From: Nemertoderma westbladi
Taxonomy: Eukaryota > Animalia > Xenacoelomorpha
Direction of reading: 5' to 3'
Assembly: GCA_032718475.1 (NCBI GenBank)
Contig: JAUCBJ010008010.1
Location: 1-45,939 of the forward strand
DNA: 45,939 nt
Shown here piece after piece: positions 13,501-33,075 of the stretch. How positions within the stretch are numbered: position 1 is the first letter of the stretch; every line of letters begins with the position of its first letter. The position numbers and the translations under genes are program-made. The notes beneath the pieces are model-generated. The model saw only the letters and a program-made list of their open reading frames with translations, did no database searches and was not told where the DNA came from.

Positions 13501-14039
13501 TGTGACGGGATCCAGGAGGGATCCCGATTTATCCGATGTGGTATTTAGTCCACGCGTCCCCGCCGTGTATGAGAGTGAAATAAAGATAACTGAGTTCTGA
13601 AGTTCGGTGTATAATAATAGGTTATAGGATATAGATATATTGTGAATTATACGGTAGGCGGGATACGGTAACTAAAGTCCCGTGATCCCCTAACTAAACT
13701 AACTGGCTGTACCCTACGCTAGCACTGCTGCACTGAGATAACTGAATCACTGATTAATAGGTTATTGGTTATATTGCACGGTGGCCTTACTGCTACTCAA
13801 TCGATGCCATTCCCCCCTCTGATTGGTTAATACCCTTGTTGGCGCCCCGTGGAGTATTCCCGTTCACTCCACCTGTTCTCTCTGGGATTAGGGGTTTGGC
13901 CCCTGACCCTCTATTGTGTGCTTCCTTCCCACTCTTATTGGGATGGCACGAGTTGGTTAATTGCCCAATCTCGTGGCTCCCAATATTGCTTATCGGCTAA
14001 TAACTTTATGGGGTGTTGGCGGGATTGAATAAGCTAACA
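13501..14039 (-). repeat. 3' LTR (539 bp)
   Basis: TGTGACGGGA...AAGCTAACA on +. By eye identical to 29100-29637 except for one small cluster (TCTGGGATTAGG vs CTTGGGTTAGG near 13881/29480). Confidence 0.97.
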
Positions 14040-14048
14040 CTCCCCCCC
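14040..14048 (-). other. Polypurine tract
   Basis: Minus strand reads GGGGGGGAG immediately before the TGTTAG start of the 3' LTR. Confidence 0.85.
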
Positions 14049-14747: not shown

Positions 14748-17282
14748 TTATCTGTTCCTCCTCACATCCTCTTCCCTGGCCCGTTTCTTGGTTATCACCG
14801 CTCCTCTGGCATCATCCGCTTTCTGCTTCCGGACCTTCGCTGCCACTTCCTTGCTGATCCCGGTCGTCGGCTCCTTGGGCGCTGGTGTTATTAAAGCCCG
14901 ATACCGCTTCGCCGGTGGCCCCTCAGAATGGCCTGGTTGTCTCCCTCGTGTGGCATCCCATAGGATCATTTTCATTGCCTTTGGTACGTGTTCCGCCAAG
15001 AAATCCCTAAACTCCCTCCGGTTCTCTGGTGTCCACCTGTCCAGGTACCGTTGCGTGTTCATAACTCCGGCGAACGATGCCGCCGTAGCTACCTCTTGAT
15101 AGGTAAACGGTAACCTTCGCTTTATGATTTCCATGTGGGTCTCCTGGTTTATGAGGAAGAAACCCCACTTGAACTCTTGGGCCTTCATGCGCTGGCGCGT
15201 CATGGCCCCGACGTCGGCCCACTCCTCGAACCTCGTGAACTTCTCCTCGTCGCTCATCCAGTCGCACTCGCGTCCGTAGTGTCCCCGAAAGTGGCACTTT
15301 GGACATCGGTTATGCAACCGTGGACACGCCCCCATCCTGTGACTTGGTTCTCTGCAGTAGAGACAAAAGGTTCCCCGTTGGAACCGGTATAGGCAGCTGC
15401 TTTCCCGATGGGTCTGTCTCCCACAGTAGTCGCAGCCGAGTACCAATGTCTCGCGTCCCACCTCGTCCTTCGTCCCAAGCGATCTCCGCGGTCTATGGAG
15501 TCGCTGGTAGGCAAACTTCTCCACGTTGCTCTCCCTGTTTACGTCTATCTCTCCGCCCCTTTCGGGCATCGTCTCCCCGAATACTATCCGTGGTGCCGTT
15601 CCCGGTTGCTCGCCCAACCTGATGGTGCTCCCCGCGAAATCCATCGCCGGCCCCTCGTGCACCCAGGTCCGCTTGCCGGATCTGTTCCAGAAGGCCCTCG
15701 CCCCACTGGCCGTCACCACCCTTCCGCCAACCCAGTCTGTGTCCGAGTGGCCTATCCTTTCGATGGGCGGCATCTCTCCGAACTCGTCGTCGTCGTCCTC
15801 CTCTTCCGGTAGTGTCTCCAATCCCGGTATCCCGATGGATCCACTATGTCCCTTCCCGCCTTGGCTCTCGCCCGTAGCTCTCCATCCCTCTAGCTCCCTT
15901 AACTTCCTTGGCGGTTGGTCGCCCTCGGCGCCCGCTGGCATGGGCATCGTTTGCAACCCCGACGTCGACTGTTTCGGCGATCCCACCGTCCATCCCAATT
16001 CTCGCCCTAGAGACTCCCCCGAACTCCCTGACGAAGTCCAATGAAGCTCGTCTAGGCCCGCCTGTTCCTCGAAGCCGTAGCTCTGTGCCCTGGCCTCCTC
16101 TTCCCTTTCCTCTGCTTCTATCCTCTCCCGTCTAGCGACTTCTTCCAGTCGCTTTGCTTCTCGTCTGTCCATCTCTAGCTGCTCCCATCTCTGATACGGT
16201 GTATCTGTCTCCCCATCTACCAGATGTCGGCTGTTGTAGTACACCGACTCGCCCTTCAGCCCCGGGTGGTCTACCAGACCGTCAAAGGCCGTCTTAAAGG
16301 CTCTCCTGTAGCTTAGGGGTGATCCCGATAACAGAAATGCCCCTGGTTCCCTTTCGATAACTACGGTCATGAATAAGTTAAGCAGACTTATCATCATCCA
16401 GTCCTCCTGCAGGATATATCGCTTCTGATATACCTTTATCGCTCCTCTGCGAAACTGATATACCTCCTGCTTTCCCGGTCTCGCTCCCCACTTCAGCGAG
16501 TTCGCTAGTTCTGCTCCGTATTCTTCCCTAAACTTCCCCCAATCCATTGGTTTGTGGCATACGAGCCCCAATAATTGGCCCATCGCCACCGCCCCGCATT
16601 GGCCTGAGTTCTCGACCACCCCCAATCCATCCGGTGCCGTCATAGCCATAAAGACTTTCTGCATATCCAGGAGGTTGGTGGCGTCCGGACCGATGATCCT
16701 CTCCGCGTCCTCGCGAATCGCCGATCCCACTTTCGTCGTCGACTTCTCTCTTACTAAGACTTGTACCGCTTTCGGCAGTCGGTCTAATTTCGGCCCGTCC
16801 TTCTTCCCATACGTCCCTAGGTCGAATAAGAAGATGTCCCCATTCGGCGCGGCCAAATGTAGGAGTATGGTCCTGGCCGACCCTGCCGTTCCTCGTCTTG
16901 AACCCGCTTCGTCCTCCACGGTTCCCTCGTCATCTAGGATCATGTATCCTCCTCTGTTGACGGACTCTATGAATCTTTTCCAGTCCTTCCTCGGCGATTC
17001 CCTCGGATACTTCGGAATCCCGAACTTCGCTTCGTCTCCTTTCACCACGTAGTGGAAGTGTTGGAAGATCGCGTTGTCCAGCGACGGCGTCCCGTAGGTC
17101 CCGACCAACCGCTGTTCGTGCGCCTCCCGGAAGTGATCCTGCAGCGCTCGTGCCGCGTGACCCCTTTCCAACCTCTCGTAGTATCCTCTCGTCTTCTCCT
17201 CCGGGTGTCTTTCGGTGAAATCCACCAATATTTCTTTTCCTCCTGACTCCGCCTTTCTCTTCCTGATCAGCTTACTCGCCAT
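14748..17282 (-). CDS. Retrotransposon extra ORF: DEDDy (RNase D/WRN/EXD/MUT-7-like) 3'-5' exonuclease plus three CCHC zinc knuckles, 844 aa from first ATG
   Basis: ExoI YMILDDEG; LLHLAAPNGDIFLFDL; LPKAVQVLV...KVGSAIREDA (ExoII); LLDMQ; GAVAMGQLLG; Q.RYILQED (ExoIII-like), all within ~16390-16960. CDYCGRQTHRESSC, CLYCREPSHRMGAC and CPKCHFRGHYGREC at 15264-15434. ORF is uninterrupted; ATG context GGAATGG. Confidence 0.85.
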   Translation of the reverse strand: MASKLIRKRKAESGGKEILVDFTERHPEEKTRGYYERLERGHAARALQDHFREAHEQRLVGTYGTPSLDNAIFQHFHYVVKGDEAKFGIPKYPRESPRKDWKRFIESVNRGGYMILDDEGTVEDEAGSRRGTAGSARTILLHLAAPNGDIFLFDLGTYGKKDGPKLDRLPKAVQVLVREKSTTKVGSAIREDAERIIGPDATNLLDMQKVFMAMTAPDGLGVVENSGQCGAVAMGQLLGLVCHKPMDWGKFREEYGAELANSLKWGARPGKQEVYQFRRGAIKVYQKRYILQEDWMMISLLNLFMTVVIEREPGAFLLSGSPLSYRRAFKTAFDGLVDHPGLKGESVYYNSRHLVDGETDTPYQRWEQLEMDRREAKRLEEVARRERIEAEEREEEARAQSYGFEEQAGLDELHWTSSGSSGESLGRELGWTVGSPKQSTSGLQTMPMPAGAEGDQPPRKLRELEGWRATGESQGGKGHSGSIGIPGLETLPEEEDDDDEFGEMPPIERIGHSDTDWVGGRVVTASGARAFWNRSGKRTWVHEGPAMDFAGSTIRLGEQPGTAPRIVFGETMPERGGEIDVNRESNVEKFAYQRLHRPRRSLGTKDEVGRETLVLGCDYCGRQTHRESSCLYRFQRGTFCLYCREPSHRMGACPRLHNRCPKCHFRGHYGRECDWMSDEEKFTRFEEWADVGAMTRQRMKAQEFKWGFFLINQETHMEIIKRRLPFTYQEVATAASFAGVMNTQRYLDRWTPENRREFRDFLAEHVPKAMKMILWDATRGRQPGHSEGPPAKRYRALITPAPKEPTTGISKEVAAKVRKQKADDARGAVITKKRAREEDVRRNR

Positions 17283-17784
17283 TCCGAACACTACACTCGC
17301 TCACCTGTAGGGTGGTGCCTTACCAAGGCGCAATACAGATGAGTGATGTATTAAGATGTTTCGTACAGTTCGATAATGGCCTACTTTTCTACTTAACTGC
17401 GCCTTTCAAGCTTAATTTAATCTAATTAATTTCGGAGCTAGTAAATCAGCCTAATTTACAATTTCCGTCCGTTACTTTTATTATGTTCTAGAACGACTTT
17501 CTTTGTGTTACCACTATTTTCCGATTTTTAGCCCTATTCTATTTATTTATTTATTTGCTTTGATTCTACTGTCCTACTACTTACTACTGCCTATGGATTT
17601 ATTCTATTCTCTCTCTGATCCATATTCTGGCCTACTCAGTGGGCCTATGCAGTACAGCAGTATGCGTCGTGTGGCCACACGATTTATCCAGCTGCACTCA
17701 TATGCCCCCCTCTCGCTACTAACTCTACTTACTGCTAACTAATATCTATATCCTATTTACCCCTTTTACCTCTTACTCTCTCTC

Positions 17785-18272
17785 TAACTAATGGTACTAC
17801 GTACCCTCTAACTCTAACTCTAACTAGGTACTACGTACCTACTAACTCTAACTCTATCGGTACTACCTACCCTCTAACTCTAACTCTAACTAGGTATTAC
17901 GTACCCTCTAACTCTAACTCTAACTAGGTACTACGTACCTACTAACTCTCTAACTATCGGTACTACCTACCCTCTAACTCTAACTCTAACTAGGTATTAC
18001 GTACCCTCTAACTCTAACTATCGGTACTACGTACCCTCTAACTCTCTAACTCTAGGTACTACGTACCTACTAACTCTAACTATCGGTACTACGTACCCTC
18101 TAACTCTCTAACTCTAGGTACTACGTACCTACTAACTCTCTAACTATCGGTACTACGTACCCTCTAACTCTCTAACTCTAGGTACTACGTACCTACTAAC
18201 TAACTAACTCTAGGTACTACGTACCTACTGACTAACTAACTCTAGGTACTACGTACCTACTAATTAACTAAC
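17785..18272. repeat. Hairpin minisatellite array, copy 1 (15 GGTACTACGTACC-type cores, 30-34 bp period)
   Basis: Cores start at 17793, 17827, 17859, 17893, 17927, 17959, 17993, 18023, 18055, 18085, 18117, 18149, 18181, 18213 and 18245, separated by (CTAACT)n-like spacers. Confidence 0.95.
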
Positions 18273-18371
18273 TTTTATTTTTATTTTTATTTTATTTTAT
18301 TTGTGTGGGAAGGGCGTCTCGCCCTCAATCCCACCCCCCTCAGTCCAAAACTTGGACGACTAAACCTCACA

Positions 18372-19320
18372 CTAACTCTGCTTTAAGGTGCTCCTTCTAG
18401 AAGACAGCATTTGCCTACCGCTCTCCTGTAGGTTTTTCTGTCCTTCGCACCTATCTTTCCACCTATCCGCACTTCTACCGATCGGACTCTTCCGTCCTCG
18501 TCGGAGTAGGTGCCTACAACTCTCGCCAACCGCCACTGGTTGTTGATGATAGTATATGATCCCCTCGCACTTCGCAAGTACTGTCCGTAAGACGTCTTCA
18601 GTGACCATGTGGGTGTTCATCAGCTTCGTCATTAGACGTTTTGAACTGCCCACGAGTCTCTCGACGCATCCTAATGTATGTGGTGCATACGGCGTCCTTC
18701 TCTCCCACTTCACTTGTCGTCTTCTCATGGCCGCCCTGACTTCTTCTCCCTCCAAGATGTCTAAGGCCTCTGCCATCTCACTCTCTGCGCCCACAAAGTT
18801 GGTGCCGTTGTCGCTATATATCACTGCGATCGTCCCACCCTTGCGGTCCCTAAACCTCTCTAAGGCGTTAATGAACGCTGATGCGGTTGCATCTTGGGCG
18901 AGTTCTATCCCCACCGCCCGCGTATTGTTGCATACGAAGATAATGCCGTAACGTTTCTCCGTGTGTCGCATCACTTTGATCTTTATCGGCCCGAACATGT
19001 CCACACCGCAATGCGTAAATGGCGGGTCGTGCTGTCTTACCCTACTCGCCGGTAGTGGCGCCATCTCCTGTACGGCTCGCTCCTTCTTCGCTCGTCGGCA
19101 GGTCTGGCACTGCCCCACTACCGCTTTCACCTTTTTCCTTAATTGTTTGACCCAATAGGTCCTTCTCATCTCTGTGAGGGTTCGGTTGGTGCCCCCATGC
19201 AGTATCGATTTGTGGGAGTCCCATATGATCTGGTGGACTATAGGCGATCCTGTGGGAATGATGATGGGTTTCGGTGGCACGACTATACTGTTGTTATATC
19301 CCACCCTAGAATTCATTACT
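18372..19320 (-). pseudogene. Duplicated integrase segment (HHCC plus DDE core)
   Basis: Identical to the last 314 aa of the 20671-23652 ORF; created by the tandem duplication. Confidence 0.9.
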
Positions 19321-19581
19321 TCGCTTCGCTTCGTCTCCTTTCACCACGTAGTGGAAGTGTTGGAAGATCGCGTTGTCCAGCGACGGCGTCCCGTAGGTCC
19401 CGACCAACCGCTGTTCGTGCGCCTCCCGGAAGTGATCCTGCAGCGCTCGTGCCGCGTGACCCCTTTCCAACCTCTCGTAGTATCCTCTCGTCTTCTCCTC
19501 CGGGTGTCTTTCGGTGAAATCCACCAATATTTCTTTTCCTCCTGACTCCGCCTTTCTCTTCCTGATCAGCTTACTCGCCAT
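19306..19581 (-). pseudogene. Truncated duplicate of the exonuclease ORF N-terminus
   Basis: MASKLIRKRK...GDEAK is identical to the start of the 14748-17282 ORF, then crosses the duplication junction and stops before the nuclease domain. Confidence 0.9.
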
Positions 19582-20083
19582 TCCGAACACTACACTCGCT
19601 CACCTGTAGGGTGGTGCCTTACCAAGGCGCAATACAGATGAGTGATGTATTAAGATGTTTCGTACAGTTCGATAATGGCCTACTTTTCTACTTAACTGCG
19701 CCTTTCAAGCTTAATTTAATCTAATTAATTTCGGAGCTAGTAAATCAGCCTAATTTACAATTTCCGTCCGTTACTTTTATTATGTTCTAGAACGACTTTC
19801 TTTGTGTTACCACTATTTTCCGATTTTTAGCCCTATTCTATTTATTTATTTATTTGCTTTGATTCTACTGTCCTACTACTTACTACTGCCTATGGATTTA
19901 TTCTATTCTCTCTCTGATCCATATTCTGGCCTACTCAGTGGGCCTATGCAGTACAGCAGTATGCGTCGTGTGGCCACACGATTTATCCAGCTGCACTCAT
20001 ATGCCCCCCTCTCGCTACTAACTCTACTTACTGCTAACTAATATCTATATCCTATTTACCCCTTTTACCTCTTACTCTCTCTC

Positions 20084-20571
20084 TAACTAATGGTACTACG
20101 TACCCTCTAACTCTAACTCTAACTAGGTACTACGTACCTACTAACTCTAACTCTATCGGTACTACCTACCCTCTAACTCTAACTCTAACTAGGTATTACG
20201 TACCCTCTAACTCTAACTCTAACTAGGTACTACGTACCTACTAACTCTCTAACTATCGGTACTACCTACCCTCTAACTCTAACTCTAACTAGGTATTACG
20301 TACCCTCTAACTCTAACTATCGGTACTACGTACCCTCTAACTCTCTAACTCTAGGTACTACGTACCTACTAACTCTAACTATCGGTACTACGTACCCTCT
20401 AACTCTCTAACTCTAGGTACTACGTACCTACTAACTCTCTAACTATCGGTACTACGTACCCTCTAACTCTCTAACTCTAGGTACTACGTACCTACTAACT
20501 AACTAACTCTAGGTACTACGTACCTACTGACTAACTAACTCTAGGTACTACGTACCTACTAACTAACTAAC
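20084..20571. repeat. Hairpin minisatellite array, copy 2
   Basis: Duplicate of 17785-18272 at +2299. Confidence 0.95.
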
Positions 20572-20670
20572 TTTTATTTTTATTTTTATTTTATTTTATT
20601 TGTGTGGGAAGGGCGTCTCGCCCTCAATCCCACCCCCCTCAGTCCAAAACTTGGACGACTAAACCTCACA

Positions 20671-23652
20671 CTAACTCTGCTTTAAGGTGCTCCTTCTAGA
20701 AGACAGCATTTGCCTACCGCTCTCCTGTAGGTTTTTCTGTCCTTCGCACCTATCTTTCCACCTATCCGCACTTCTACCGATCGGACTCTTCCGTCCTCGT
20801 CGGAGTAGGTGCCTACAACTCTCGCCAACCGCCACTGGTTGTTGATGATAGTATATGATCCCCTCGCACTTCGCAAGTACTGTCCGTAAGACGTCTTCAG
20901 TGACCATGTGGGTGTTCATCAGCTTCGTCATTAGACGTTTTGAACTGCCCACGAGTCTCTCGACGCATCCTAATGTATGTGGTGCATACGGCGTCCTTCT
21001 CTCCCACTTCACTTGTCGTCTTCTCATGGCCGCCCTGACTTCTTCTCCCTCCAAGATGTCTAAGGCCTCTGCCATCTCACTCTCTGCGCCCACAAAGTTG
21101 GTGCCGTTGTCGCTATATATCACTGCGATCGTCCCACCCTTGCGGTCCCTAAACCTCTCTAAGGCGTTAATGAACGCTGATGCGGTTGCATCTTGGGCGA
21201 GTTCTATCCCCACCGCCCGCGTATTGTTGCATACGAAGATAATGCCGTAACGTTTCTCCGTGTGTCGCATCACTTTGATCTTTATCGGCCCGAACATGTC
21301 CACACCGCAATGCGTAAATGGCGGGTCGTGCTGTCTTACCCTACTCGCCGGTAGTGGCGCCATCTCCTGTACGGCTCGCTCCTTCTTCGCTCGTCGGCAG
21401 GTCTGGCACTGCCCCACTACCGCTTTCACCTTTTTCCTTAATTGTTTGACCCAATAGGTCCTTCTCATCTCTGTGAGGGTTCGGTTGGTGCCCCCATGCA
21501 GTATCGATTTGTGGGAGTCCCATATGATCTGGTGGACTATAGGCGATCCTGTGGGAATGATGATGGGTTTCGGTGGCACGACTATACTGTTGTTATATCC
21601 CACCCTAGAATTCATTACTAGGATCCCATCCTCGTTGAGTTGTGGCGACAGCGTGATCAACTCGCTATCCCGTCGGAGGTGCTGTTGGTTACCGACACGT
21701 TCCACCTCGTCGCCGTAGTTCTTGCGTTGTTCATAGCGGATCACTGCCATGGCCGCTCCTTCCAGATCTATGGTTGTCCTGGTCTTCTTGTCCTTGCCGA
21801 CTCCCGCAAGGAAATTCCCAAAGGCTCTCCAGTACGCCACTAGTTTCTTGGTCTTATACCAACTAGAACTGTAGCTGAGGAGTTTATCCGTCGGGTTATC
21901 GCACAGTTCCCTTCCTGGTTGCACGTCCCTAATCTCCCTCACCATCTGGGAGTATATCTCTTCTCCCTCTGAATCTCCCTCTCCTTCTGATACTGGTTCC
22001 GAGCCCGGGTCCACCTTCTTCATCGGCGGCCAGGCCTCTCTATCGCTCAGAAATTGTGGCCCATGTTGCCACAATACTTCCTTCTTCAGGAAAGTGTGGC
22101 GTTCCACGCCCCTCGACAGCAAGTCCGCTGGGTTCTCATCTGTTGGGCAGTAGTGCCACCTTTCCAGTTCTGTGCTCGCCCTTATTTCGTCCACTCTATT
22201 CGCGACGAATATCGGGTATCTCGTCTTTTCGTTGTGTAGCCAACCAAGCACTACCATGGAGTCCGTCCAGTAGTGTGTCTCCACTATGTTGGGAATTGTA
22301 TCCACTAGGTAGGCTGTGGCTCTAACTCCTAGTCTCGCAGCTGTCAATTCTAACTTGGGAACAGATGCTGAATCTGGCGGCGTTGACTTAGCTTTGCTAA
22401 AGGCTAGTCTGGGCTTGTGAGGCCCCTCTCGTTGTACTAAATAGAGTGCCGCTCCGTATGCCTCTAACGACGCATCGGAGAACATATGTAAGTCCAGATC
22501 CGTCATGTTCCCGTCCGGAAAATACACTCGCGGCATGTTGTATGTTCCCATCCTTTCCAAGTCTCCTGTCCATTTGCTCCACTGTTTCTTGATGTCCTCT
22601 GGTACTTCTACATCCCACTCATCCTTCAATTTATATACTCTCTTGAGTATCTGTTTCCCCGTGACTAGTAGTGGGGATGCTAGGCCTAGGGGATCGTATA
22701 TCCTTGCTATATACGATACATAACCCCTCTTCGTATGGGTGTCTGCGCCCTCCTGGCTCAGCTGATACTTCAGTTCGTCTGTTTTCCTATCCCACACGAT
22801 TCCCAATGCCTTCTGCTGGGATTCCGTTCTCTTAATCGCCATGTCCTGTCCTCTGGCTGTTGTAGGGTTGTCCATGGTCGATTCTGGTTTCTTGTCTTCT
22901 ATTTCCTTGATGAATTCTTCTGAACTGGATTGGAATTTGGTCAGGTTGAAGCCGGATCCTTTCAGGATGTCGCGAACCTCGCGCCCTGTTTCCAGTATCT
23001 CCTCAACCGTATTTCCAGACTCCATACCGTCGTCTACGTAGAAGCCGCGTCTGATCATATCGACGGCCCTACTGCTGTATCTATCTTCCTTCCCCTTTAC
23101 CGTGTCTCTCACTGCCATAGTCGTCGTAAATGAGGACGACTTGGCCCCCATATTTTGTACTACCATCTTATACACTGGTATTACCGGCGGTTCTTCTTCG
23201 CCGTTATACCATAAGAAGCGTTGACTATCGCTATCTTCCTCTGTTACTCGGACTTGGTTGAACATGCCTTCTATGTCACACGTGAAGGCGTGTTTCCCAT
23301 TCCTAAATCTAAGTAGTACTTCTATGCCCGAATTGTATATGTTTGGGCCCTCTAGTAGGTAATCGTTTAAGCACTTTCCGTCGGTCTTTGCCGATGCATC
23401 GACTACCATCCTAAGTTTACCTTTCTTCGGGTCTAAAGCTACGTGGAGTGGCAGGTAGTATGTCCTGTCCGTGTTCGGTTCGTCGACCGGTAACTCCACG
23501 GCCCATCCCTTCTCGACGTACTTCTTGATCGTTTTGTGAATGTACTCGTTCTTCTCGGGGCTCCGTTGTAGTGTTTGTTTCAGCTTGCGGAGTCTCGTGA
23601 GTACCGTCCCTCTATTATCGGGTAGCGGTATCTTCGGTAGTTTCCATACCAT
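20671..23652 (-). CDS. pol: BEL/Pao Pol segment: reverse transcriptase, RNase H (Pao A17 region), integrase with damaged C-terminus
   Basis: YYLPLHVA..KLRMVVDASAK, LNDYLLEGP, CDIEGMFNQV, FYVDDG (RT); FSDASLEAYG, VPKLEL, WTDS, NPADLLSRG (RNase H); H.SILHGG...CQTC, GVDMFGP, SDNGTNF, GCVERLV (IN). The real C-terminus WRLARVV...DGRVRSVEV is in another frame (20682-20850). Confidence 0.93.
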   Translation of the reverse strand: MVWKLPKIPLPDNRGTVLTRLRKLKQTLQRSPEKNEYIHKTIKKYVEKGWAVELPVDEPNTDRTYYLPLHVALDPKKGKLRMVVDASAKTDGKCLNDYLLEGPNIYNSGIEVLLRFRNGKHAFTCDIEGMFNQVRVTEEDSDSQRFLWYNGEEEPPVIPVYKMVVQNMGAKSSSFTTTMAVRDTVKGKEDRYSSRAVDMIRRGFYVDDGMESGNTVEEILETGREVRDILKGSGFNLTKFQSSSEEFIKEIEDKKPESTMDNPTTARGQDMAIKRTESQQKALGIVWDRKTDELKYQLSQEGADTHTKRGYVSYIARIYDPLGLASPLLVTGKQILKRVYKLKDEWDVEVPEDIKKQWSKWTGDLERMGTYNMPRVYFPDGNMTDLDLHMFSDASLEAYGAALYLVQREGPHKPRLAFSKAKSTPPDSASVPKLELTAARLGVRATAYLVDTIPNIVETHYWTDSMVVLGWLHNEKTRYPIFVANRVDEIRASTELERWHYCPTDENPADLLSRGVERHTFLKKEVLWQHGPQFLSDREAWPPMKKVDPGSEPVSEGEGDSEGEEIYSQMVREIRDVQPGRELCDNPTDKLLSYSSSWYKTKKLVAYWRAFGNFLAGVGKDKKTRTTIDLEGAAMAVIRYEQRKNYGDEVERVGNQQHLRRDSELITLSPQLNEDGILVMNSRVGYNNSIVVPPKPIIIPTGSPIVHQIIWDSHKSILHGGTNRTLTEMRRTYWVKQLRKKVKAVVGQCQTCRRAKKERAVQEMAPLPASRVRQHDPPFTHCGVDMFGPIKIKVMRHTEKRYGIIFVCNNTRAVGIELAQDATASAFINALERFRDRKGGTIAVIYSDNGTNFVGAESEMAEALDILEGEEVRAAMRRRQVKWERRTPYAPHTLGCVERLVGSSKRLMTKLMNTHMVTEDVLRTVLAKCEGIIYYHQQPVAVGESCRHLLRRGRKSPIGRSADRWKDRCEGQKNLQESGRQMLSSRRSTLKQS

Positions 23653-23654
23653 TC

Positions 23655-25704
23655 CTATTGTATTATTGTACTTTGTAGAGCCTGCTTGTCTTCTACCGAG
23701 GTCCCGACCCCGGTCTCTTTCAGTCCCTCGAAGTCTTGTCTGAGCAGTCTTTTAAGCTGCTCCTCTGCTCCCTCGTCACCCATTTCCTGCATTGTTCCCG
23801 CGAACATGCATCCTGATGTCTCCGACATCCTGAATGGTATCTTGCTCTTAATTGGACCACTCAGCGTCCACCCGAATGGCGTTAATATGGCCACCGGGTC
23901 GCTCTGCTTGTCTTCGCCGAAGACCGTTTGCATTCTCTCGTGGGCCGTTGGGCAGTCCATGCCTACTATGATGGATACCTTCCTAACGTCCACGTCTGGG
24001 ATTGAGAAGTCAATGTTGTCCAGGAATTTGTATTGCTCGACCTCGATGTTGGTTGGCCGCCTGGCATTGATGTTAATTGACTCTATTACTTGGATGGGGT
24101 CGATGGTTGCCCCATAATCGCATCCTGGTGCCACTGCTGCAATTGCGCACCGTCCTGTCCTCATCTCTAGGATCTCGTCTTTGCTAGAGATGGTTGTCAC
24201 CGCCATCCTGCTTGGCCTCGTTCTCAACCCTATTTCTTCGGCTACCCATTCCTCAACTAATGTGAAGGCAGCTCCACTATCAACCAGCATTAGTGTTGTT
24301 ACTGATCGATTGCCTTCCCCGATCACTCGTACTGGTACTACTCCAAGTAGCACTGTTCCTCTCTTCTTCGCCCCTACTGTGCTCGTCGCCATCGTTTGGC
24401 CTCTCCTTTGGCCAAACTTGACCGGCTTCTCTTGGCACTCCCTAGCCTTATGTCCACTCTTCACGCACCGCGAGCAGATTTTATTGCTCGACGCGTAATC
24501 TATCTGGTCTTGCCTCGGTAGCGCCTGCCAGTACCTGCAGTTCATGGTTTTATGAAGCGCATTTGCGTGTAGCTGGCATTTGCTCTTTGGGTCATAGCCC
24601 TCTTTATACAATGCATTGCGTATCGCAGTTATGTTCGTACCAAAGTCCCTACTATTCTTATTGACTGGGTTTGGCCTACTGGACGTACTGGGGTTATGTT
24701 TATTCATGTTGTTATTGTTTCCCTGTCCGTCCCTTGATGTTGTCTTATCTTCGTTTGTCTGTGGACTTGCAGTCCCCTGCGTCGCTGCATACGGCAACGA
24801 TTGCCTGAGTCTCGGTAATGCGTTCGATGTGTTGTGCTCTGGCTTTGGTCTATGGTAGTCTGTCTTTGGTCCCTTTCCCAGGCTGTCTTCGCTATAGACT
24901 GGGTCAGTTATTAGTTCAGCCTCGTAATTTAAGAAGTTTGACATTTCTTCTAAACCTGGTTCCGCACCCTTCTTGTCCCGGGTGGAGAAAGCGATCTTCC
25001 TCCATTTGTTGCGCAGCCAGCTCGGTAGTGCCTGCGCTATCGTGGTGATGTTATTGGACGCGTTGAGTTCGTATGGCGCGTCTAGCGTCTTCAGCACGAT
25101 CAGCGCCTTCTCGACTTTGTTAGCAAACGTCTTAATGCTAACGGGATTATCCTGTAGGCCACCCGATGTTATGCCTCTCAGCGTTTGCCTGATGATCTTG
25201 GCCGGGTGTCCGTATTCCCTATCCAGTGCCCGCCATGCTGTCGTGAAGCCGCCCTCTATTCCCTGATATTGCCTCACGATGTCGTATGCTGGGCCTCCCG
25301 TGTACACTTGTAGATACTTTAGGCACTCCGCCTGCGTCAAGTTTTTTGTTAGTATTTCGTTACTATACATTCGCCGAAACTGTAAGTATTCTTCCGGCCT
25401 GCTCCCATCGAATTTGAACGGTTCCACGGGTGGTAATTCGATCCTCGTTTTCAACGCATCGATCAACGTGGCCATCCCCATTGCCTGCGCTTCTAATGGA
25501 TTCGACGGGTGCTGTATAGTTTCCCCTGTCTGGTGCGGTTCGTCCGTCCTATTTCTTGATCTTCTCTGATTCGGATATGTAATCGGGGGTAGCGGCCCCC
25601 TCCATATGTCTGTATCACACGACCTGTTTTCATCTAGGGGTCTCGTCGTTCTTGTTCCTGTCGGGGTATATTGTTGATATTGTGATGGGGGAATGTCACC
25701 CTGT
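23655..25704 (-). CDS. gag: BEL/Pao Gag core plus aspartic protease
   Basis: FKFDGSRPEEYLQF...YLQVYTGGPA...AWRALDREYG (Pao Gag, DUF1759-like); CQLHANALHKTMNC and CSRCVKSGHKAREC knuckles; LVDSGAAFTLV protease; AILTPFGWTLSGP. I read the frame open upstream of 25481 as far as the C10 run at 25705-25714. Confidence 0.9.
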
Positions 25705-28700
25705 CCCCCCCCCCACCGGTATGTCTGGTACTGGGGTTGATGTTAATATGTTGGGGCCCATACACCTATCCGCAATAATTCCCCCTTCCCCTGGGTATAT
25801 GTTATGTCCCTGCATGCTGTAGTCATACTGCTGTGCTGGTACCGGTATAGGCCTATCAGCTTCTGGCCTACTCGCCGGTATGTATTCCGCGACTTCCGGG
25901 TTTAATCCCGTTGTCCGCGCTATCCTATCGCCTACATTGCCTCTCTCAGTATGGCCTACGGTATGTGCAGTAAGACCTACAGTATGCCCTACAGTCTGCA
26001 TGTGTTGCTCGGGATCGAAGTTTATTCTTCTCGAATAACCCTCCCCGCGGCTACCGTATTCTCGATCGGTAGGTATATTCCGTCGGAAAGTTTCTCTTCG
26101 ATCCCCCTCTCCACTGTTTTCATCTTCGTACCGGTACATCGCGTACCCCTCTCTCGGCGTGTAATGCGTCTCACCGGATCGCATCCCTCCGGGGCGACGG
26201 CAATCTCCCGGAGTCCGACCCCACTGACTCTCCGTTCTCATCTCGACTACCGACGGCTCGCTGTCCGTCCTCGCTCTTCTATCGTTTGCGGCGATACTTC
26301 TACTACTGTCTTCCTCTCTTCTCCTATCAGTGGAATATTCCCGCTCACGAGATCTCTCGTCGACCTCCCGGTTAAACCCCACTGTTCTTCTTTCCTCCTC
26401 TGATCGGGCTCGACGCTCCGTCTGCCCTCCCGCGACGTCAACCTGTCTTTCTCTGCTCGATCGCACGTCGCGGGGGATACTCGCAATCCCCCTATTACTT
26501 TCCGTCGCCGGTTGTTGCGGTTTACCTTGTTCGGCCCTCGCATTGTCCGCTGACGGTTGTGGGACACTCTCTGCCCCCCCCCCCCCCCCCCCCTCTCGCC
26601 GCTAACTCTCTGTTGTGGGGCCCTTGTAGCCCGCCCCCACCCGCTACATTCTACTTCGCTACCTCTCGCCCCGCCACTATATATCTCTCTAGTCGACACA
26701 TCAACCCTACCACAGTCGGGTCTGTTCACCCCCGCCTCTCCCTCTGCTATTGCGTGGCCTTCCAGGCCCTCTACTCCCTGCCTACCAACTACGCGGCCTA
26801 CCAGGCCCTCTGCTCCCTGTCTACCAACTACGTGGCCTACCAGGCCCTCTGCTCCCTGTCTACTAACTACGTGGCCTACCAGGCCCTCTGCTCCCTGTCT
26901 ACTAACTACGTGGCCCACCAGGCCCTCTGCTCCCTGGTTACGTAGGCCCGACGTGTTTACATTAATAGCACCCATATTGGAAACGGAATTAATTTGCTCA
27001 TTTGAAACAAAATCATTTGTATTATTCTGCGCGACTACGTTATCTGAATTATTTTGTAAATTCGGGCTAAGATCATTATTTGAATTATTCGAATTATTCT
27101 GTGTAATTGCGTTATTTAAGTTATTTTGTAGGTCCGAATTCGAGTTATTATTTTGATTGTTTGAATTATTTTGCGTAACTACATCAATATTAGGATTATT
27201 TTCTATATTAACACTGGGATTGTTCTGATTTAAATTTAAATTACTACCACCAGGCAAAGTATTTCCTGTAATAAAGGTTTGATTAGCGTTATCCCATACG
27301 GTACTATTAATATCAACAACGTCTACTGTACCATTATTATTACCCCCCCCGCCCGTACGGTCGCACCAGTTCTGGGTCTGTCGTGCGGTCCCTGTCAGTG
27401 GAGTATTAATAAATATATCTACGGCCCTCGGCTCCTCAAAAATACTCGAGCCGGCCCCGGTTTCAGACGGCGGTCCCACTCGCACGTATTCCAACTCGTG
27501 CTCCCCTCTAATTATATTTCCCGCAAACTCACTCTGCCGTTTCTCTAATTCCTTGCGCTCCTTTTCACTCTCTGCCACTTTCCCCTCACGCTCCTGGGTG
27601 TCCTTGATGGCCGAGTCTGCGGCACTCTTAATGCTCTCCCTTCGTCTCGCCTCACGCTCTTTGCGTTCCTTTTCCTTTCTCGTCTCATATTCCTTGCGTT
27701 CCTTTTCCCTTTTTGCCTCACGTTCCTTGCGTTCCTCTTCCCCTTTTGCCTCACGTTCCTTGCGTTCCTCTTCCCCTTTTGCCTCACGTTCCTTGCGTTC
27801 CTCTTCCCCTTTTGCCTCACGTTCCTTGCGTTCCTCTTCCCCTTTTACCTCACGTTCCTTGCGTTCCTCGTCCTCCCTTGCCTCACGCTCTCTGCGTTCC
27901 CTTTCCTCTCTCGCTTCACGCTCCCTACACTCCCTTTCCTCTATCTCATCATACTCCCTTAGGCTTTTCAAAGCCCTTTCGGCCCTTTCTCCGGTTTCTC
28001 TAAGCAATACCGTTTCCCTCTCTAACCGCACTCTTCCCTCCTCTAGCCGTTCCTTCATTTCTCTCTGACCTTGCTCTGCCATGCTGAGACGGTATGCGGC
28101 TCCTATTTTCCTCACCGCTCTTTCTTTCGCGGAGGATGTAGCAGACTTATCGGTTATGACGGACTTCCCCCGCCTTCCCGACCTACTAACTTTCTCCCAC
28201 TTCCCGGAGCTTTCTCCGACCGACGAGGCCGAATCCTCGGTGTTAACCTCGGATTCGCCCCCTTTGAGTCCCCTCCAACCCACCGGTTTTACTCCCCGGG
28301 CATCGATTAAGTATGGCCCTATGTACACTGACGCTATGCTAGGTCCCATACTCCCACACTCCCATAGTTCAAACAGTTCGCCTGCAATTCCCTTTGCTCT
28401 CTCCCCGGCTAGTTCTCTCTGCCCAAAACGTATCAGGTAATTTAAGTGTCTATCCGACTCACCTAGTCGCTTTCTCAGTCTCACCTCGTCCACCTTCGCC
28501 CCTTCCTTCTTGGCGTCGTTTATCAGCTTCCGGGTCGCGTTGTAGGCCCGTCGAAGTCGGTCAGAAACCCCGACGTCCTCGTCGCCGACCTCTCCTCCGT
28601 CCCTCCGGGTTCGACGTCGTACCGGCGGCTCCACCGTCGCCGTTCCGGTGGGCCGTCCGTCGCCCTCGGCCTGTAGCTGGCCGGCGACATCGGTACCGAT

Positions 28701-29021
28701 CTTTCCTCCGTCTCTTCGCGTCCGGCGTCGCACCGTCGGCCCCACCGGTTCGGTGGGCCGCTCGTCGCCCTCGGCCGGTAGCTGGCCGGCGACATCGGCG
28801 CGCCGTCCTCCGTCCCGTGTCGACTCATCTCCTTCTCCCTCCGTCTCGCTCTCTCTCTCTCTTGGCTCGACTTCGGGTTCCAGGCCCTCCTCGTCCTGTG
28901 CTTCCGGTTCGCCCGTTATCGATGGCTCCGGCGTCGTGGGCCTGTATCGTTTGGTCGCGGCCTCGCGGATCGTTAGGTCTTCGTCCGGGGTCCGCGTCGG
29001 TGTCTCGCCCGATTCACTCAT
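25696..29021 (-). CDS. Long low-complexity N-terminal Gag extension, split by homopolymer frameshifts
   Basis: ATG at 29021, 78 nt after the 5' LTR. The 924-aa frame switches at C20 (26574-26593) into the 256-aa frame, which I read as open up to that run, then at C10 (25705-25714) into the Gag frame. Confidence 0.75.
26755..26940 (-). repeat. 39-bp coding tandem repeat (RQGAEGLVGHVVS)x~5
   Basis: CCAGGCCCTCTGCTCCCTGTCTACTAACTACGTGGCCTA units. Confidence 0.9.
27650..27925 (-). repeat. 30-bp coding tandem repeat (EERKEREAKG)n, charged helix/coiled coil
   Basis: TTGCCTCACGTTCCTTGCGTTCCTCTTCCCCTT-type units. Confidence 0.9.
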
Positions 29022-29099
29022 CTCGTTTGTGGCTGATGATTCGGCTAGCTAGGTTGCAGTTCTTAGAGTTTAACTAGGGCGGCAGCTCGGTTTAGTTAC

Positions 29100-29637
29100 T
29101 GTGACGGGATCCAGGAGGGATCCCGATTTATCCGATGTGGTATTTAGTCCACGCGTCCCCGCCGTGTATGAGAGTGAAATAAAGATAACTGAGTTCTGAA
29201 GTTCGGTGTATAATAATAGGTTATAGGATATAGATATATTGTGAATTATACGGTAGGCGGGATACGGTAACTAAAGTCCCGTGATCCCCTAACTAAACTA
29301 ACTGGCTGTACCCTACGCTAGCACTGCTGCACTGAGATAACTGAATCACTGATTAATAGGTTATTGGTTATATTGCACGGTGGCCTTACTGCTACTCAAT
29401 CGATGCCATTCCCCCCTCTGATTGGTTAATACCCTTGTTGGCGCCCCGTGGAGTATTCCCGTTCACTCCACCTGTTCTCCTTGGGTTAGGGGTTTGGCCC
29501 CTGACCCTCTATTGTGTGCTTCCTTCCCACTCTTATTGGGATGGCACGAGTTGGTTAATTGCCCAATCTCGTGGCTCCCAATATTGCTTATCGGCTAATA
29601 ACTTTATGGGGTGTTGGCGGGATTGAATAAGCTAACA
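29100..29637 (-). repeat. 5' LTR (538 bp)
   Basis: Direct repeat of 13501-14039, followed by TSD TCCGT. Confidence 0.97.
29339..29372 (-). promoter_or_regulatory. Candidate LTR core promoter: TATAA plus Inr-like TCAGTT
   Basis: Minus-strand TATAA begins at 29372; the A of TCAGTT is at 29342, 30 nt downstream. Confidence 0.45.
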
Positions 29638-29805
29638 TCCGTACTCGAAAAAACTACTTATACATGTTATACCCCGTTACCGTTTGATACCGGTAGTCAC
29701 AATGATAGCGAAAACAACGACCCGTTTTTAGCACAAAGGATCGGACGGCCAAGAGGTTCGTCCAATAAAGGGTATATACGGATTCGTACATTCTCAGACG
29801 TTGAC

Positions 29806-30548
29806 AATTTGGTTAGAAAATCCCGCCTCTGTAATCTGCCCCTTTCCCTCAATTAGCTAAATGATCGTTTATTGTTTTGGTTAGATAATCCCGCCTCTGT
29901 AACCTGCTCCTTTCCCTCAATTGGTAATGTTATCGTTTATTGTTTTGGTTAGAAAATCCCGCCTCTGTAACCTGCTCCTTTCTCTCAATTGGTAATGTTA
30001 TCGTTTATTGTTTTGGTTAGAAAATCCCGTCTCTGTAACCTGCTCCTTTCTCTCAATTGGTAATGTTATCGTTTATTGTTTTGGTTAGAAAATCCCGTCT
30101 CTGTAACCTGCTCCTTTCCGTCAATTTGTTAAATGATCGTTTATTGTTTTGGTTAGAAAATCCCGCCTCTGTAACCTGCCCCTTTCCCTCAATTAGTTAA
30201 ATGATCGTTTATTGTTTTGGTTAGATAATCCCGCCTCTGTAACCTGCTCCTTTCCCTCAATTGGTAATGTTATCGTTTATTGTTTTGGTTAGGAAATCCC
30301 GCCTCTGTAACCTGATCCTTTCCCTCAATAAGTTAAGTGATCGTTTTTTGTTTTGGTTAGAAAATCCCGCCTCTGTAACCTGCTCCTTTCCCTCAATTAG
30401 TTAAGTGATCGTTTATTGTTTTGGTTAGAAAATCCCGTCTCTGTAACCTGCTCCTTTCCCTGATTTGGTAAAGTGACTGTTTATTGTTTTGGTTAGAAAA
30501 CTCGGCCTTAACCTGCTCCTTTCCATCAATTGGTAATTGTTTTTGGCT
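29806..30548. repeat. ~68-bp tandem repeat, ~11 copies
   Basis: TTTTGGTTAGAAAATCCCGCCTCTGTAACCTGCTCCTTTCCCTCAATT... recurs at ~29813, 29881, 29949 ... 30493. Confidence 0.95.
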
Positions 30549-31679
30549 TTAAAATGAGTGTTTTGCTACGTCATGTGGTAATCGATTATCGACAACAACC
30601 ACAAACTATTAAATATAGAGTCTTTTTACCACAGGCGCATATGGAATTCTATCTCATAGTCTATAAATCATGGAATCATGGAATGTTTTGGCACAGGCAT
30701 AGTGAAATCAACGATCTGACAGTCCAGAAATCACCAGTCTGACAGTTTGAAGAAATACATACATAAAAAGTCATTAAAATGACAATAAAAGTCATTAAAT
30801 GGACCACAAAAGTCATTATGCATAATTCGTAAAAAAAAAATGACAAAAAAAGTCAAATAAAATGACATAAAAAATCACTGCCGATTCTAAATTAGGAAAA
30901 CACTAGTAAAACAGTAAAACACTAGGAAAACATAGGAAAAGTACTGTAAAACACCCGGAAAACAGTGAAAATATTGATCAGCAGGGAATTTAACACATTT
31001 ACTCCTCTGAATTGACAATCCTAAATGTACTCCTCGCATAGCACCCCTTAAGTAATCACCGTAAAACATAGGAAAACACTATAAAAACTCTATAAACCTT
31101 CCGGAAAACAGTGAAAAAATTGATGGGCCTCCCTAAAACCCGGTCCCGGTCCCCAAGACCCCTAAAACCCCCCGGTCCAATGATATTCTACGGGGAATTT
31201 ATCCAAAACTAGGACCGGGTAAAACCCGGTCGGTCCTGACCCCTAAAAGTCGGTCCATAAAAGCCGGTCCATGCTTGGATTGGCCAATGAAAAAATATTC
31301 CAGCCAATAAAACAACGATAGTAATATTCCAGCCAATGAAACAAGGTTAAATAGTATTACTGCTGGCTGCTATACACAGATACAGCGGTGTTTACTTTAT
31401 TACAGGGATTATCTTTCTGTCTTTGTCTATATACAGTAGGCCTATAGGTAGGCCTGCATCATATTCATCCGTGGGAATTATCACACGGCCTTATTTCCCA
31501 CTTTATATATCTAGCATTGTAGTAAGGCCCTACACTGTATACTATACACAGTACAGTATAGTACCTACTGTACCAGGTCAGGTCAGGTATTCTAGGTCAT
31601 TGATCAAGAAAACTTGCCATCTCCATGCAGCATAAAGGAGGTGCCACCTGTAGCTGCATAGACCCTCTAACTAGGGCAA

Positions 31680-33075
31680 ATCTCTAACCGCATCATCCGT
31701 TGCGACTTCTCATGTTCTGGAAGACTGGCTAAGAAGTTTCCTAAGGTGGTTCTGATTGTGTGCTACTCTCCAACTAGTGTTGCCCCTGTAGAGGAGGTGG
31801 AAAATTTCTACCAGAATCTACAAGCAGCTACTGATGGAGTGGATCAGCATTTAGTTTAGTTTAATTACGCCAGTATCAATAAAAATATGACTCAAAAGTC
31901 AAACATACAAACACAAATGACAGAAATAAAGATAATCCATGATTAGGACAAAATTACAGTAAAATTAAATTTCCATATGAAGGTAATGTACCGTAATACG
32001 TACTGTAATGTAATATATACACGTTCTGTTATACAGTCTGCATTGCACCAAGATAAATACTTATACATATTCAGATATTATAAACAATTGGTTTTCGCAA
32101 TGGCTGGCAAGTTACGCAGTTGCGTTTTAAGGCGGGAATAAAATATAAATAAAAAATAGATTAATTAATTAAAGATACAATTCGATAAAATATTAATAAA
32201 AAAAATAGATTAATTAATTAAAGATAAAATTCGATAAAAAAAAATAAATATTAAGTCAAGACAAGAAATATATTCCTCGAACCAGCCACATATGTAATGT
32301 AATCATTAGATTTACAGTATATTTCTAAATTCATTGCAGTATTCGAAGATTCTGCCAAGTTATACAATTGCATTTTAAAGCCGGGAAAACAAAATTAAAA
32401 GAAAAACTTATGTAATAATGCTTTAATTATATTTATACAGTAAAAATCATAGATGTATAAAAATCGCAGGTGTGGAAATAAAATATATGAATAAAATTCG
32501 AGAAAAATTAAGATATACTATAGGTATGTATCAAGGGTTAAAAGTTTGATGGAAATAAAATGAAATAATTACTTAAAAGAAGTATCTGTCAACTGAAAAT
32601 AAAAGGCTGTTTTCTTGAGGTGCGGGAGAGTCGTCATAAATGTTCATAATAGTTGGCATGAAGCGATCGAGCCCTATTTTAAAAGCATTCACGGTGGTCG
32701 CGGTTACAACGTCGTTGGGTAACCGGTTCCAGACGTTTACCACTCGGTTTGCGAATGAGTTTTTGCAAACGAGCAAGTTCTTATTGAGGGCCTGTTTGTG
32801 TAGCTTTAGGGAGTTTCCTCTAGTATTGTGGTGGTGAGTGTCGACAACAAGCGACAATAGTTGTTTCCAATCAAAGGCAGCCTTGCCATGGGTTAGGTTC
32901 CACACTTGCATGCATTCTTAACATTCCTGGGAGACTTTAATGCAAGTCTGCATCAATCACCTACATCGCCCTGGGTCTATAGCAATAGTGTTAACCGAAA
33001 TTCCGTCCATCTTCAGGATTTTATCTCTGGAAATGGATTGTTTTCGGCTGGAACCCAGTTCAAGAAGCGAACTGG
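31680..33075 (+). pseudogene. Apurinic-like endonuclease (APE) fragment of an RTE-like LINE, split by a CR1 insertion
   Basis: SNRIIR...VLIVCYSPTSVAPVEEVENFYQNLQAATDGVDQH (to 31850) rejoins AFLTFLGDFNASL...NRNSVHLQDFISGNGLFSAGTQFKK (from 32912). Confidence 0.8.
31851..32907 (-). mobile_element. 5'-truncated CR1-like LINE (ORF2 C-terminus, long 3' UTR, microsatellite tail)
   Basis: TRGNSLKL...FANRVVNVWNRLPNDVVTATTVNAFKIGLD; (TAAAC)n tail on the minus strand at 31851-31863; GCAT duplicated at 31847-31850 and 32908-32911. Confidence 0.85.

What the first reader, a model, noticed from the sequence alone, without database searches (positions are those of the whole stretch)
29075..29315. No tRNA primer-binding site; PBS position is complementary to the element's own LTR (possible self-priming)
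Seen: after the 5' LTR (...CCCGTCACA) the sense strand reads GTAACTAAACCGAGCTGCCGCCCTA, with no TGG to pair with a tRNA CCA end. The LTR sense strand contains TTTAGTTAC (29275-29267), a perfect 9-nt complement whose 3' C would pair with the first base after the LTR, the geometry a minus-strand primer needs. An adjacent LTR segment (29277-29315) can pair in blocks (TCCCGT, TAACTAAAC, GCTG, CCCTA) with 29109-29075 as an alternative stem. Established: fission-yeast Tf1 self-primes from its own transcript. Inference: tRNA-independent priming in a BEL/Pao element. The motif lies ~70 nt downstream of the candidate TSS, so it may be in R and also sit near the RNA 3' end, where the element's own 3'-5' exonuclease could trim back to the duplex and create the primer. 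That would link the two oddities into one system. A 9-nt match alone is modest evidence.
Basis: partly seen in the sequence, partly recalled or inferred. Interest (0 to 1): 0.8.

Follow-up and report, generated by a model that had tools for sequence, protein, structure and literature searches.

The report
Self-priming site in BEL/Pao retrotransposon
A young animal jumping gene of the BEL/Pao group has no tRNA landing site; the spot instead matches a 9-letter piece of the element's own end repeat, and distant relatives show the same self-match with different letters, so it likely starts copying itself with its own RNA, which the standard description of this group does not allow for.

Summary
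Observation confirmed. A young BEL/Pao LTR retrotransposon (minus strand; LTRs 29637-29100 and 14039-13501; 5-bp TSD) has no TGG until base 218 after the 5' LTR. The first 9 bases pair perfectly with LTR 29275-29267 (shuffle P 0.0025). In family contigs the LTR motif shows no variant, and the one PBS variant keeps a G-U pair. No two-sided compensatory change was seen.

Of 8 distant relatives with a definable LTR end, 4 have a perfect 11-nt self-complement built across an LTR intron (null 0 of 400 each), and a ninth locus showed it in a de novo scan. As here, the primer ends 0-33 nt before the poly(A) hexamer. The scan found BEL/Pao self-priming before on other DNA; those notes gave me the splice lead.

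Best reading: Tf1-like self-priming, with the cut inferred. The exonuclease link is weak: the spliced relatives measured have no room for that ORF. Host tRNA fragments could not be tested. I found no paper reporting this for BEL/Pao.

The parts
29100..29637 (-). 5' LTR, 538 nt, TG...CA
   Evidence: Alignment with the 3' LTR shows 1 gap and 2 substitutions near 29480; TSD ACGGA
29368..29374 (-). TATA-like motif, 30 nt before the candidate start (inferred)
   Evidence: Motif scan; the label is recalled, no RNA data
29339..29344 (-). Candidate initiator TCAGTT, +1 at about 29342 (inferred)
   Evidence: Motif scan; consensus recalled; 3 other TCAGT sites exist in the LTR
29287..29299 (-). 5' arm of a 13-bp clamp helix (11 Watson-Crick, 2 G-U)
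   Evidence: Pair probability 0.83-0.96
29267..29275 (-). Candidate self-primer 3' end TTTAGTTAC; C29267 pairs with the first base after the LTR
   Evidence: no listed variant at 29253-29291
29256..29266 (-). Helix arm directly 3' of the primer end, pairing with 29163-29154
   Evidence: Pair probability 0.75-0.95; 0 variants in 20 paired positions
29235..29240 (-). Candidate poly(A) hexamer AATATA, 26 nt after the primer end (inferred)
   Evidence: No AATAAA or ATTAAA in the LTR; relatives have AATAAA 0-33 nt after their primer end
29154..29163 (-). Partner of the helix 3' of the primer
29105..29125 (-). 8-bp hairpin at the U5 end
   Evidence: Pair probability 0.93-0.98; variants only in the loop, 29117-29114
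29091..29099 (-). PBS position GTAACTAAA, no TGG
   Evidence: its only variant (29095) keeps a G-U pair; contigs keep this core and differ beyond it (joints 29004 to 29091; table 8)
29067..29079 (-). 3' arm of the 13-bp clamp helix in the leader
23655..29048 (-). gag-protease region in three overlapping frames (29048-26247, 26601-25696, 25742-23655)
   Evidence: ORF list; DUF1759 and aspartyl protease hits
20671..23751 (-). RT-RNase H-integrase frame of BEL/Pao type; no C-terminal DUF5641 domain detected
   Evidence: Pfam Peptidase_A17 E 3.7e-40, Integrase_H2C2; best homologs 33-35% identical
17025..21619 (-). Tandem duplication with period 2299 (integrase end, repeat array, start of ORF3)
14748..17300 (-). 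ORF3, 850 codons: candidate DEDDy-type 3'-5' exonuclease (motifs at 16940, 16718, 16418) and three CCHC zinc knuckles (15434-15264)
   Evidence: Atlas hit PF01612, score 0.94, 177 shared features, 34% of cluster members; motif positions; no HMM or sequence hit for the domain
14040..14048 (-). Polypurine tract
13501..14039 (-). 3' LTR

Best explanation
This BEL/Pao retrotransposon likely primes minus-strand DNA synthesis with its own RNA: the LTR segment 29275-29267 is complementary to the nine bases just after the 5' LTR, and the transcript is predicted to fold so that they pair. Shown: no TGG site, the perfect 9-base match in primer geometry, its conservation in family contigs, and the same self-match with other letters in relatives. 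Inferred steps: (1) transcription starts near 29342, so the 5' about 76 nt fold back on the PBS and leader, and a 13-bp helix makes up for the short 9-bp duplex; (2) an endonucleolytic cut 3' of C29267, probably by the element's RNase H as in Tf1, frees the 3'-OH at a junction with a flanking helix and a U5 hairpin; (3) RT copies U5 and the about 50 nt of R left between the cut and the poly(A) site, which allows the first strand transfer and would explain why the primer end lies just upstream of the poly(A) hexamer in all seven elements compared. Relatives build an 11-nt primer across an LTR intron; this family carries it contiguously. ORF3 is probably an accessory protein that is not required for priming.
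For: Specific 9-bp match (P 0.0025; 0 of 400; 0 in 422,768 nt). Fold z -2.43 and -2.77 with 0 of 100 shuffles as stable; register A probability 0.78-0.91 in the four folds. Clamp region duplex reached by 15 of 1000 shuffles. Family contigs: 31 variant positions listed, none in 29253-29291; the single PBS variant and the 29071 variant keep pairing as G-U; U5 hairpin variants only in the loop. In the LTR, 1 of 58 positions in the four junction stems vary against 28 of 142 elsewhere (Fisher p 0.0006). Contigs that keep only the 6-11-base core with a different leader exist. Relatives: of 8 with a definable 5' LTR end, L007, L010, L017 and L019 have an 11-nt complement across a GTRAG..YAG intron (0 of 400 each). 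L006 showed the same in a de novo scan of 12 loci, and L004 matches 10 of 11. Each spliced PBS scores 11 on its own LTR and at most 7 on others, except the near-kin pair L006/L017. Primer end to poly(A) hexamer is 26 nt here and 0, 7, 22, 23, 31, 33 nt in relatives. The one relative with TGG at +1 (L015) has no self-match and falls outside that clade in a quick tree.
Against: 9 bp is below the 10-bp cut-off used by Neumann et al. (PMC6317226) and below the 11 nt of Tf1 and of the relatives. No two-sided compensatory change within this family was seen, and contigs are too short to phase both arms. Variant 29292 breaks a clamp pair at 1-3% depth in X1 and X3, and 29302 differs in all laid depth of X1 and X3 and breaks an outer helix, so the outer clamp is not conserved. 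The clamp is significant in only 1 of 6 relatives (L017, 6 of 300). The Fisher test used four stems chosen after seeing the variants; with the two other stems added it is 4 of 80 against 25 of 120, and promoter or att motifs could also conserve these blocks. L026 shows no self-match, L022 only 8 nt (11 of 400), L004 fails the strict test, and L019 has TGG at +2. The splice-site criteria were set after seeing hits. The window's Pol is a long branch (2.34) and its placement has SH-aLRT 90 in an unfinished search. TSS, poly(A) site and cut site are unmeasured. The primer would lie about 67 nt inside the transcript, not at its 5' end as in Tf1.
Confidence: 0.55

Rival explanations
1. Self-priming, but the primer 3' end is made by 3'-5' trimming. 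A short LTR transcript ending at the LTR poly(A) site, or the 3' R copy, anneals to the PBS and leader and is trimmed back to C29267 by ORF3 or a host exonuclease.
For: The primer end lies 26 nt before the candidate poly(A) hexamer. ORF3 resembles PF01612 exonucleases and has three zinc knuckles. The 9+13 bp pairing would also work in trans.
Against: Spliced-primer relatives L007, L010 and L019 have no room for ORF3 and no hit to it (the search is insensitive because ORF3 has no known homolog). The invariant helix 29266-29256 would protect 11 more bases. DEDDy ORF3s also occur in bdelloid gypsy and Penelope-like elements (PMC5408684). The third motif reads Y-I-L-Q-E-D, so catalysis is uncertain.
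Confidence: 0.15
2. A host RNA (internal tRNA fragment, mitochondrial tRNA or other small RNA) is the primer, and the LTR motif only masks or regulates the PBS.
For: Half-tRNA primers exist in Ty1/copia lineages (PMC6317226). The host tRNA set was not available (no whole genome), so this was not tested.
Against: Only 6-11 bases are shared among subfamilies and the leader beyond differs. PBS letters differ among relatives yet match their own LTRs, which one host primer would not explain. No Rfam match inside the element.
Confidence: 0.12
3. The pairing is a real leader structure for another purpose (suppressing 5' LTR polyadenylation, packaging, dimerisation, translation control), or it is chance and the PBS has decayed.
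For: The duplex is short and AU-rich (-7.9 kcal/mol alone). The long-range LTR-leader duplex is matched or beaten by 7 of 75 control windows elsewhere in the element and 8 of 500 shuffles. This copy has broken frames.
Against: The LTRs are 99.4% identical and the family is abundant with the same core, so the site is not a decayed single copy. The helix ends exactly at the LTR boundary here and in 4 of the 5 loci with a perfect spliced match, and one base off in L010.
Confidence: 0.13
4. This family also builds its primer across a splice junction, like its relatives.
For: The motif contains AG|TTAC, like the relatives' acceptors, and one donor gives a 10-nt junction at offset 1 in the other register.
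Against: None of the 9 consensus GTRAG..YAG junctions gives a match. The GTAAG donor at 29389 is lost in 45% (X1) and 66% (X3) of depth.
Confidence: 0.05

Closest known systems
Tf1/Tf2 of Schizosaccharomyces pombe, Tj1 of S. japonicus and the Tf1/sushi and Tcn1 groups (Ty3/gypsy)
   Same: No tRNA PBS; the PBS pairs with the element's own R sequence; a U5 hairpin lies next to the PBS. In Tf1, RNase H cuts after base 11 (PMC7175516 passage; PMC4600332 passages).
   Different: This is BEL/Pao, not gypsy. The duplex is 9 bp, lies about 67 nt inside the inferred transcript and is clamped by a second 13-bp helix. Relatives make the primer across an intron. No biochemical proof here.
TAR/Houba/Osr-1 Ty1/copia lineage of plants
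   Same: Self-priming predicted from LTR-PBS complementarity (PMC6317226 passages).
   Different: Different superfamily and kingdom; that survey required at least 10 bp.
Belpaoviridae (BEL/Pao) as described by ICTV
   Same: LTRs, PPT, PR-RT-RH-IN order, Pao-type Pol domains.
   Different: ICTV gives an 18-nt PBS for host tRNA-Arg or tRNA-Gly and a 4.2-10 kb genome (PMC8742986, whole text). Here there is no such PBS, the element is 16.1 kb including a 2.3-kb duplication, and ORF3 is exonuclease-like.
Juno and Vesta LTR elements of bdelloid rotifers with DEDDy ORF3
   Same: An extra ORF3 resembling DEDDy 3'-5' exonucleases with no demonstrated role (PMC5408684).
   Different: Those are other lineages (gypsy-like, recalled). 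This ORF3 adds three CCHC knuckles and has no detectable sequence homolog.

Membership tests
BEL/Pao (Belpaoviridae) | LTRs with TG...CA ends, TSD and PPT | tested here: met
BEL/Pao (Belpaoviridae) | Pao-type Gag/Pol in the order PR-RT-RH-IN | tested here: met
   DUF1759, protease, Peptidase_A17 E 3.7e-40, integrase; 119 of 120 listed homologs carry PF05380
BEL/Pao (Belpaoviridae) | 18-nt PBS complementary to a host tRNA 3' end (ICTV profile) | tested here: not met
   First TGG at +218. This lowers fit to the ICTV description, not the protein-based placement.
Tf1/sushi group | Ty3/gypsy chromovirus Pol | tested here: not met
   Pol is BEL/Pao type
Tf1-like self-priming (works like) | PBS complementary to the element's own LTR, ending at the LTR boundary | tested here: met
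   9 bp at offset 0
Tf1-like self-priming (works like) | Primer is the first 11 nt of the transcript | tested here: inconclusive
   Motif-based TSS lies about 67 nt upstream; no RNA holder usable for start mapping
Tf1-like self-priming (works like) | Complementarity kept through compensatory change | tested here: inconclusive
   Within the family only one-sided changes. Across relatives four different PBS sequences each match their own LTR.
Tf1-like self-priming (works like) | RNase H cleavage creates the primer 3' end | not testable with these tools
   Needs biochemistry
Splice-junction primer type (earlier scan notes) | GT-AG intron in the LTR whose junction complements the PBS | tested here: not met
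   Window: none of 9 consensus junctions. Met in L006, L007, L010, L017, L019.
Half-tRNA or tRNA-fragment priming | PBS complementary to an internal host tRNA segment | not testable with these tools
   No host genome
DEDDy 3'-5' exonuclease (ORF3) | DnaQ-like fold with ExoI-III acidic residues | tested here: inconclusive
   Atlas 0.94 to PF01612; motifs by eye; no HMM hit; single-sequence model pLDDT 33

The most novel reading that the evidence does not exclude
A broad BEL/Pao clade has abandoned tRNA priming. Most members build an 11-nt primer by splicing an LTR intron, while this family lost the intron, carries the primer contiguously under a long RNA clamp, and captured an exonuclease-zinc-knuckle protein (ORF3) that trims a short LTR transcript back to the duplex: an element that encodes both its primer RNA and the enzyme that matures it.
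Probability: 0.12. Interest if true: 0.88.

Novelty: new variant of a known kind. Interest (0 to 1): 0.65.

Why it matters
The ICTV profile describes Belpaoviridae as primed by host tRNA, and self-priming is reported for Ty3/gypsy (shown for Tf1) and predicted for one Ty1/copia lineage. A BEL/Pao case would put self-priming in the third LTR superfamily. Such elements would escape control by tRNA-derived small RNAs, and annotation tools that require a tRNA PBS would miss or misjudge them. The contiguous primer here, next to intron-built primers in relatives, gives a direct test of how a self-primer is cut and how splicing became part of reverse transcription.

Tried and rejected
No whole genome is held, so host tRNAs and other full copies could not be searched. 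No RNA holder was listed; X6 is only guessed to be RNA, and its low-depth contigs stopping near 29299 were not used. A DNA-pattern scan of metagenome contigs gave 2 loci, both chance bacterial matches. Viral-contig scans found no Pol relative. ORF3 searches found nothing useful; the single hit is a 19-residue match in a repetitive protein. The ORF3 model had pLDDT 33, so no fold search was run. A splice-built primer in the window was tested and not found. A TGG inside the LTR (29113-29111) cannot be the PBS because both LTRs and the TSD extend to 29100. The L022 recalculation was mis-indexed and is discarded; the figure used is 11 of 400. In one search L004, L022 and L026 were labelled self-complementary before the strict test, which L004 and L026 then failed. 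The contiguous-9 hits in L011, L013 and L014 had no defined LTR end and were not counted. Summed contig depth was not used as copy number. ARAGORN and Rfam found nothing.

Full report
The element. The finding lies at the 5' end of a minus-strand LTR retrotransposon. The LTRs are 29637-29100 and 14039-13501, differ by one gap and two substitutions, have TG...CA ends and are flanked by the TSD ACGGA; a PPT precedes the 3' LTR. Pfam shows DUF1759 Gag, protease, RT, Pao-type RNase H (Peptidase_A17, E 3.7e-40) and integrase, so it is BEL/Pao. Its best Pol relatives are only 33-35% identical. This copy has frame breaks in gag-protease, no detected DUF5641 domain after the integrase, and a tandem duplication with period 2299. 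An 850-codon ORF3 (17300-14748) lies before the 3' LTR. The host is an animal by the element type and flanking genes; I did not determine it, and no genome is held.

The observation. After the 5' LTR the sense strand reads GTAACTAAACCGAG, and the first TGG is at +218. TTTAGTTAC at 29275-29267 pairs with +1 to +9. This arises in 0.25% of 20,000 LTR shuffles, or 0.7% allowing offsets 0-3, in 0 of 400 fake PBSs drawn from the element, and the 9-mer is absent from 422,768 nt of related loci. It won in 3 of 14 folds and, all with a short 3' boundary.

Predicted structure. From the candidate start the RNA folds with z -2.43, and 0 of 100 shuffles are as stable. The 9-bp helix has probability 0.78-0.91. 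The clamp region is reached by 15 of 1000 shuffles. The wider LTR-leader duplex is only moderately unusual: 8 of 500 shuffles and 7 of 75 control windows match it.

Variation in the family. Contigs of four runs from three samples were laid on 29040-29325 at 80% likeness or more. Substitutions at 3% or more were listed at 31 positions, none in 29253-29291. The only PBS variant (29095; 6% in X1, 8% in X3) turns G-C into G-U; 29071 turns U-A into U-G; 29292 breaks a G-U pair at 1-3% in X1 and X3, while one X5 contig, read by eye, has G-C there. U5 hairpin variants fall only in the loop. In the LTR, 1 of 58 positions in the four junction stems vary against 28 of 142 elsewhere (p 0.0006). Those stems were chosen after seeing the table; with the two other stems added it is 4 of 80 against 25 of 120. 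Joints from 29004 to 29091 in X1, X3 and X4 and pieces ending at 29089-29094 show subfamilies that keep the core and differ beyond it. The two displayed loose ends at the LTR boundary do not show CCA, but only 24 of 99 loose-end rows were shown. Against: 29302 differs in all laid depth of X1 and X3 and breaks an outer helix, contigs cannot phase the two arms, and no two-sided change was seen.

Relatives. A scan of GTDB contigs with a Pol alignment returned 25 BEL/Pao loci, which I infer to be host DNA inside bacterial bins. Eight had a definable 5' LTR end. L015 has TGG at +1 and no self-match. Following a lead from earlier scan notes, I tested splice junctions. L007, L010, L017 and L019 have a perfect 11-nt complement across a GTRAG..YAG intron in the LTR, each reached by 0 of 400 fake PBSs; L022 has only 8 nt (11 of 400); L004 and L026 fail the strict test. 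L004 matches 10 of 11, and L006, a close kin of L017, showed the same junction in a de novo scan of 12 further loci. The criteria were set after seeing hits, and L019 has TGG at +2. Four different PBS sequences each score 11 on their own LTR and at most 7 on unrelated ones. The primer end lies 0-33 nt before AATAAA in six relatives and 26 nt before AATATA here. In a quick, unfinished tree the window's Pol is a long branch beside the clade that holds these loci (SH-aLRT 90), with L015 outside. In the window no consensus junction matches, and the best donor is lost in 45-66% of depth, so this family's primer is contiguous.

The exonuclease. ORF3's N-terminal part resembles 3'-5' exonucleases by language-model features (PF01612, 0.94, 177 shared features, 34% of cluster members) and has acidic motifs and three CCHC knuckles. 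No HMM, sequence or usable structure confirms it. L007, L010 and L019 have 549-566 nt between the pol match and the 3' LTR, and ORF3 has no hit in the 27 loci, so the self-match does not need ORF3. Whether other copies of this family carry ORF3 was not tested.

Mechanism. I favour cis self-priming with an endonucleolytic cut 3' of C29267, probably by RNase H as in Tf1 (0.55). This leaves about 50 nt of R for the first strand transfer, which would explain the fixed place before the poly(A) hexamer, and it fits the invariant helix that would stall a trimming enzyme. In the relatives, a primer made from a spliced 3' LTR would tend to erase the intron from progeny, which also points to the 5' copy. 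Rivals are trimming of a short LTR RNA (0.15), another leader function or chance (0.13), a host RNA primer (0.12, untested) and a spliced primer (0.05). Self-priming in any form totals about 0.75. Every enzymatic step is inferred.

Literature. The ICTV profile states host-tRNA priming (PMC8742986, whole text). Self-priming is described for Tf1/sushi and Tcn1 and predicted for the copia TAR lineage (passages of PMC6317226, PMC7175516, PMC4600332, PMC5443660). DEDDy ORF3s are known from bdelloid LTR elements (PMC5408684, passages and Discussion). PMC3118150 has no occurrence of PBS, primer, tRNA or exonuclease. Passages of PMC3601003, PMC13524379, PMC3286476 and PMC8220671 added nothing on BEL priming. 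Ten searches listed no paper on self-priming in BEL/Pao. I saw only listings for most hits, two searches listed only part of their hits (25 of 78, 30 of 80), no supplements were read, and subscription journals and Repbase reports are not covered. The Levin papers were seen only as reference titles, so details of the Tf1 structure are recalled. Seven earlier scan notes report BEL/Pao self-priming in other genomes; they are not independent support, and I tested only the splice idea, on other DNA.

Verdict. A real feature and a new variant of a known kind: likely Tf1-like self-priming in BEL/Pao, with a contiguous 9-nt primer under an RNA clamp and intron-built primers in relatives. The exonuclease link is possible but unsupported. 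Interest 0.65.

Noticed in passing
L006, L007, L010, L017, L019 (L004 with one mismatch): BEL/Pao elements whose PBS position is complementary over 11 nt to an exon-exon junction of a GT-AG intron (76-1022 nt) inside the LTR.
   Followed up: yes
window 17300-14748: ORF3 combines a candidate DEDDy exonuclease with three CCHC knuckles and has no detectable homolog; an anti-silencing or RNA-processing role is open.
   Followed up: partly
window 17025-21619: Near-exact tandem duplication with period 2299 (one mismatch in the 2296-nt run compared) covering the integrase end, a 32-34-bp repeat array and the start of ORF3; could be real or an assembly artefact.
   Followed up: partly
window 29048-26247: Long low-complexity N-terminal extension of gag with 33-bp and 39-bp tandem repeats and no Pfam hit.
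   Followed up: no
L015:7472-13451: An LTR-flanked BEL/Pao element with a TGG PBS and a 5-bp TSD lies inside a record titled as a Wolbachia chromosome; host DNA in the assembly or a real insertion.
   Followed up: no
L003-L027: 25 distinct loci in bacterial genome records encode animal-type BEL/Pao Pol, probably host contamination of bins.
   Followed up: no
window 29740-30600: 68-bp tandem array just outside the 5' LTR.
   Followed up: no
window 30885-37613: Long inverted repeats (192 nt at 97%, 160 nt at 96%) about 6 kb apart, probably a DNA transposon or MITE nest.
   Followed up: no
window 38641-40137 (+) and 230-1375 (+): Uninterrupted host-type ORFs: a WD40 protein with an F-box-like segment (read by eye) and a C2H2 zinc-finger protein.
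   Followed up: no
window 29005-29090: Family contigs replace this leader segment while keeping the PBS core; whether their R region changes in step is unknown.
   Followed up: partly
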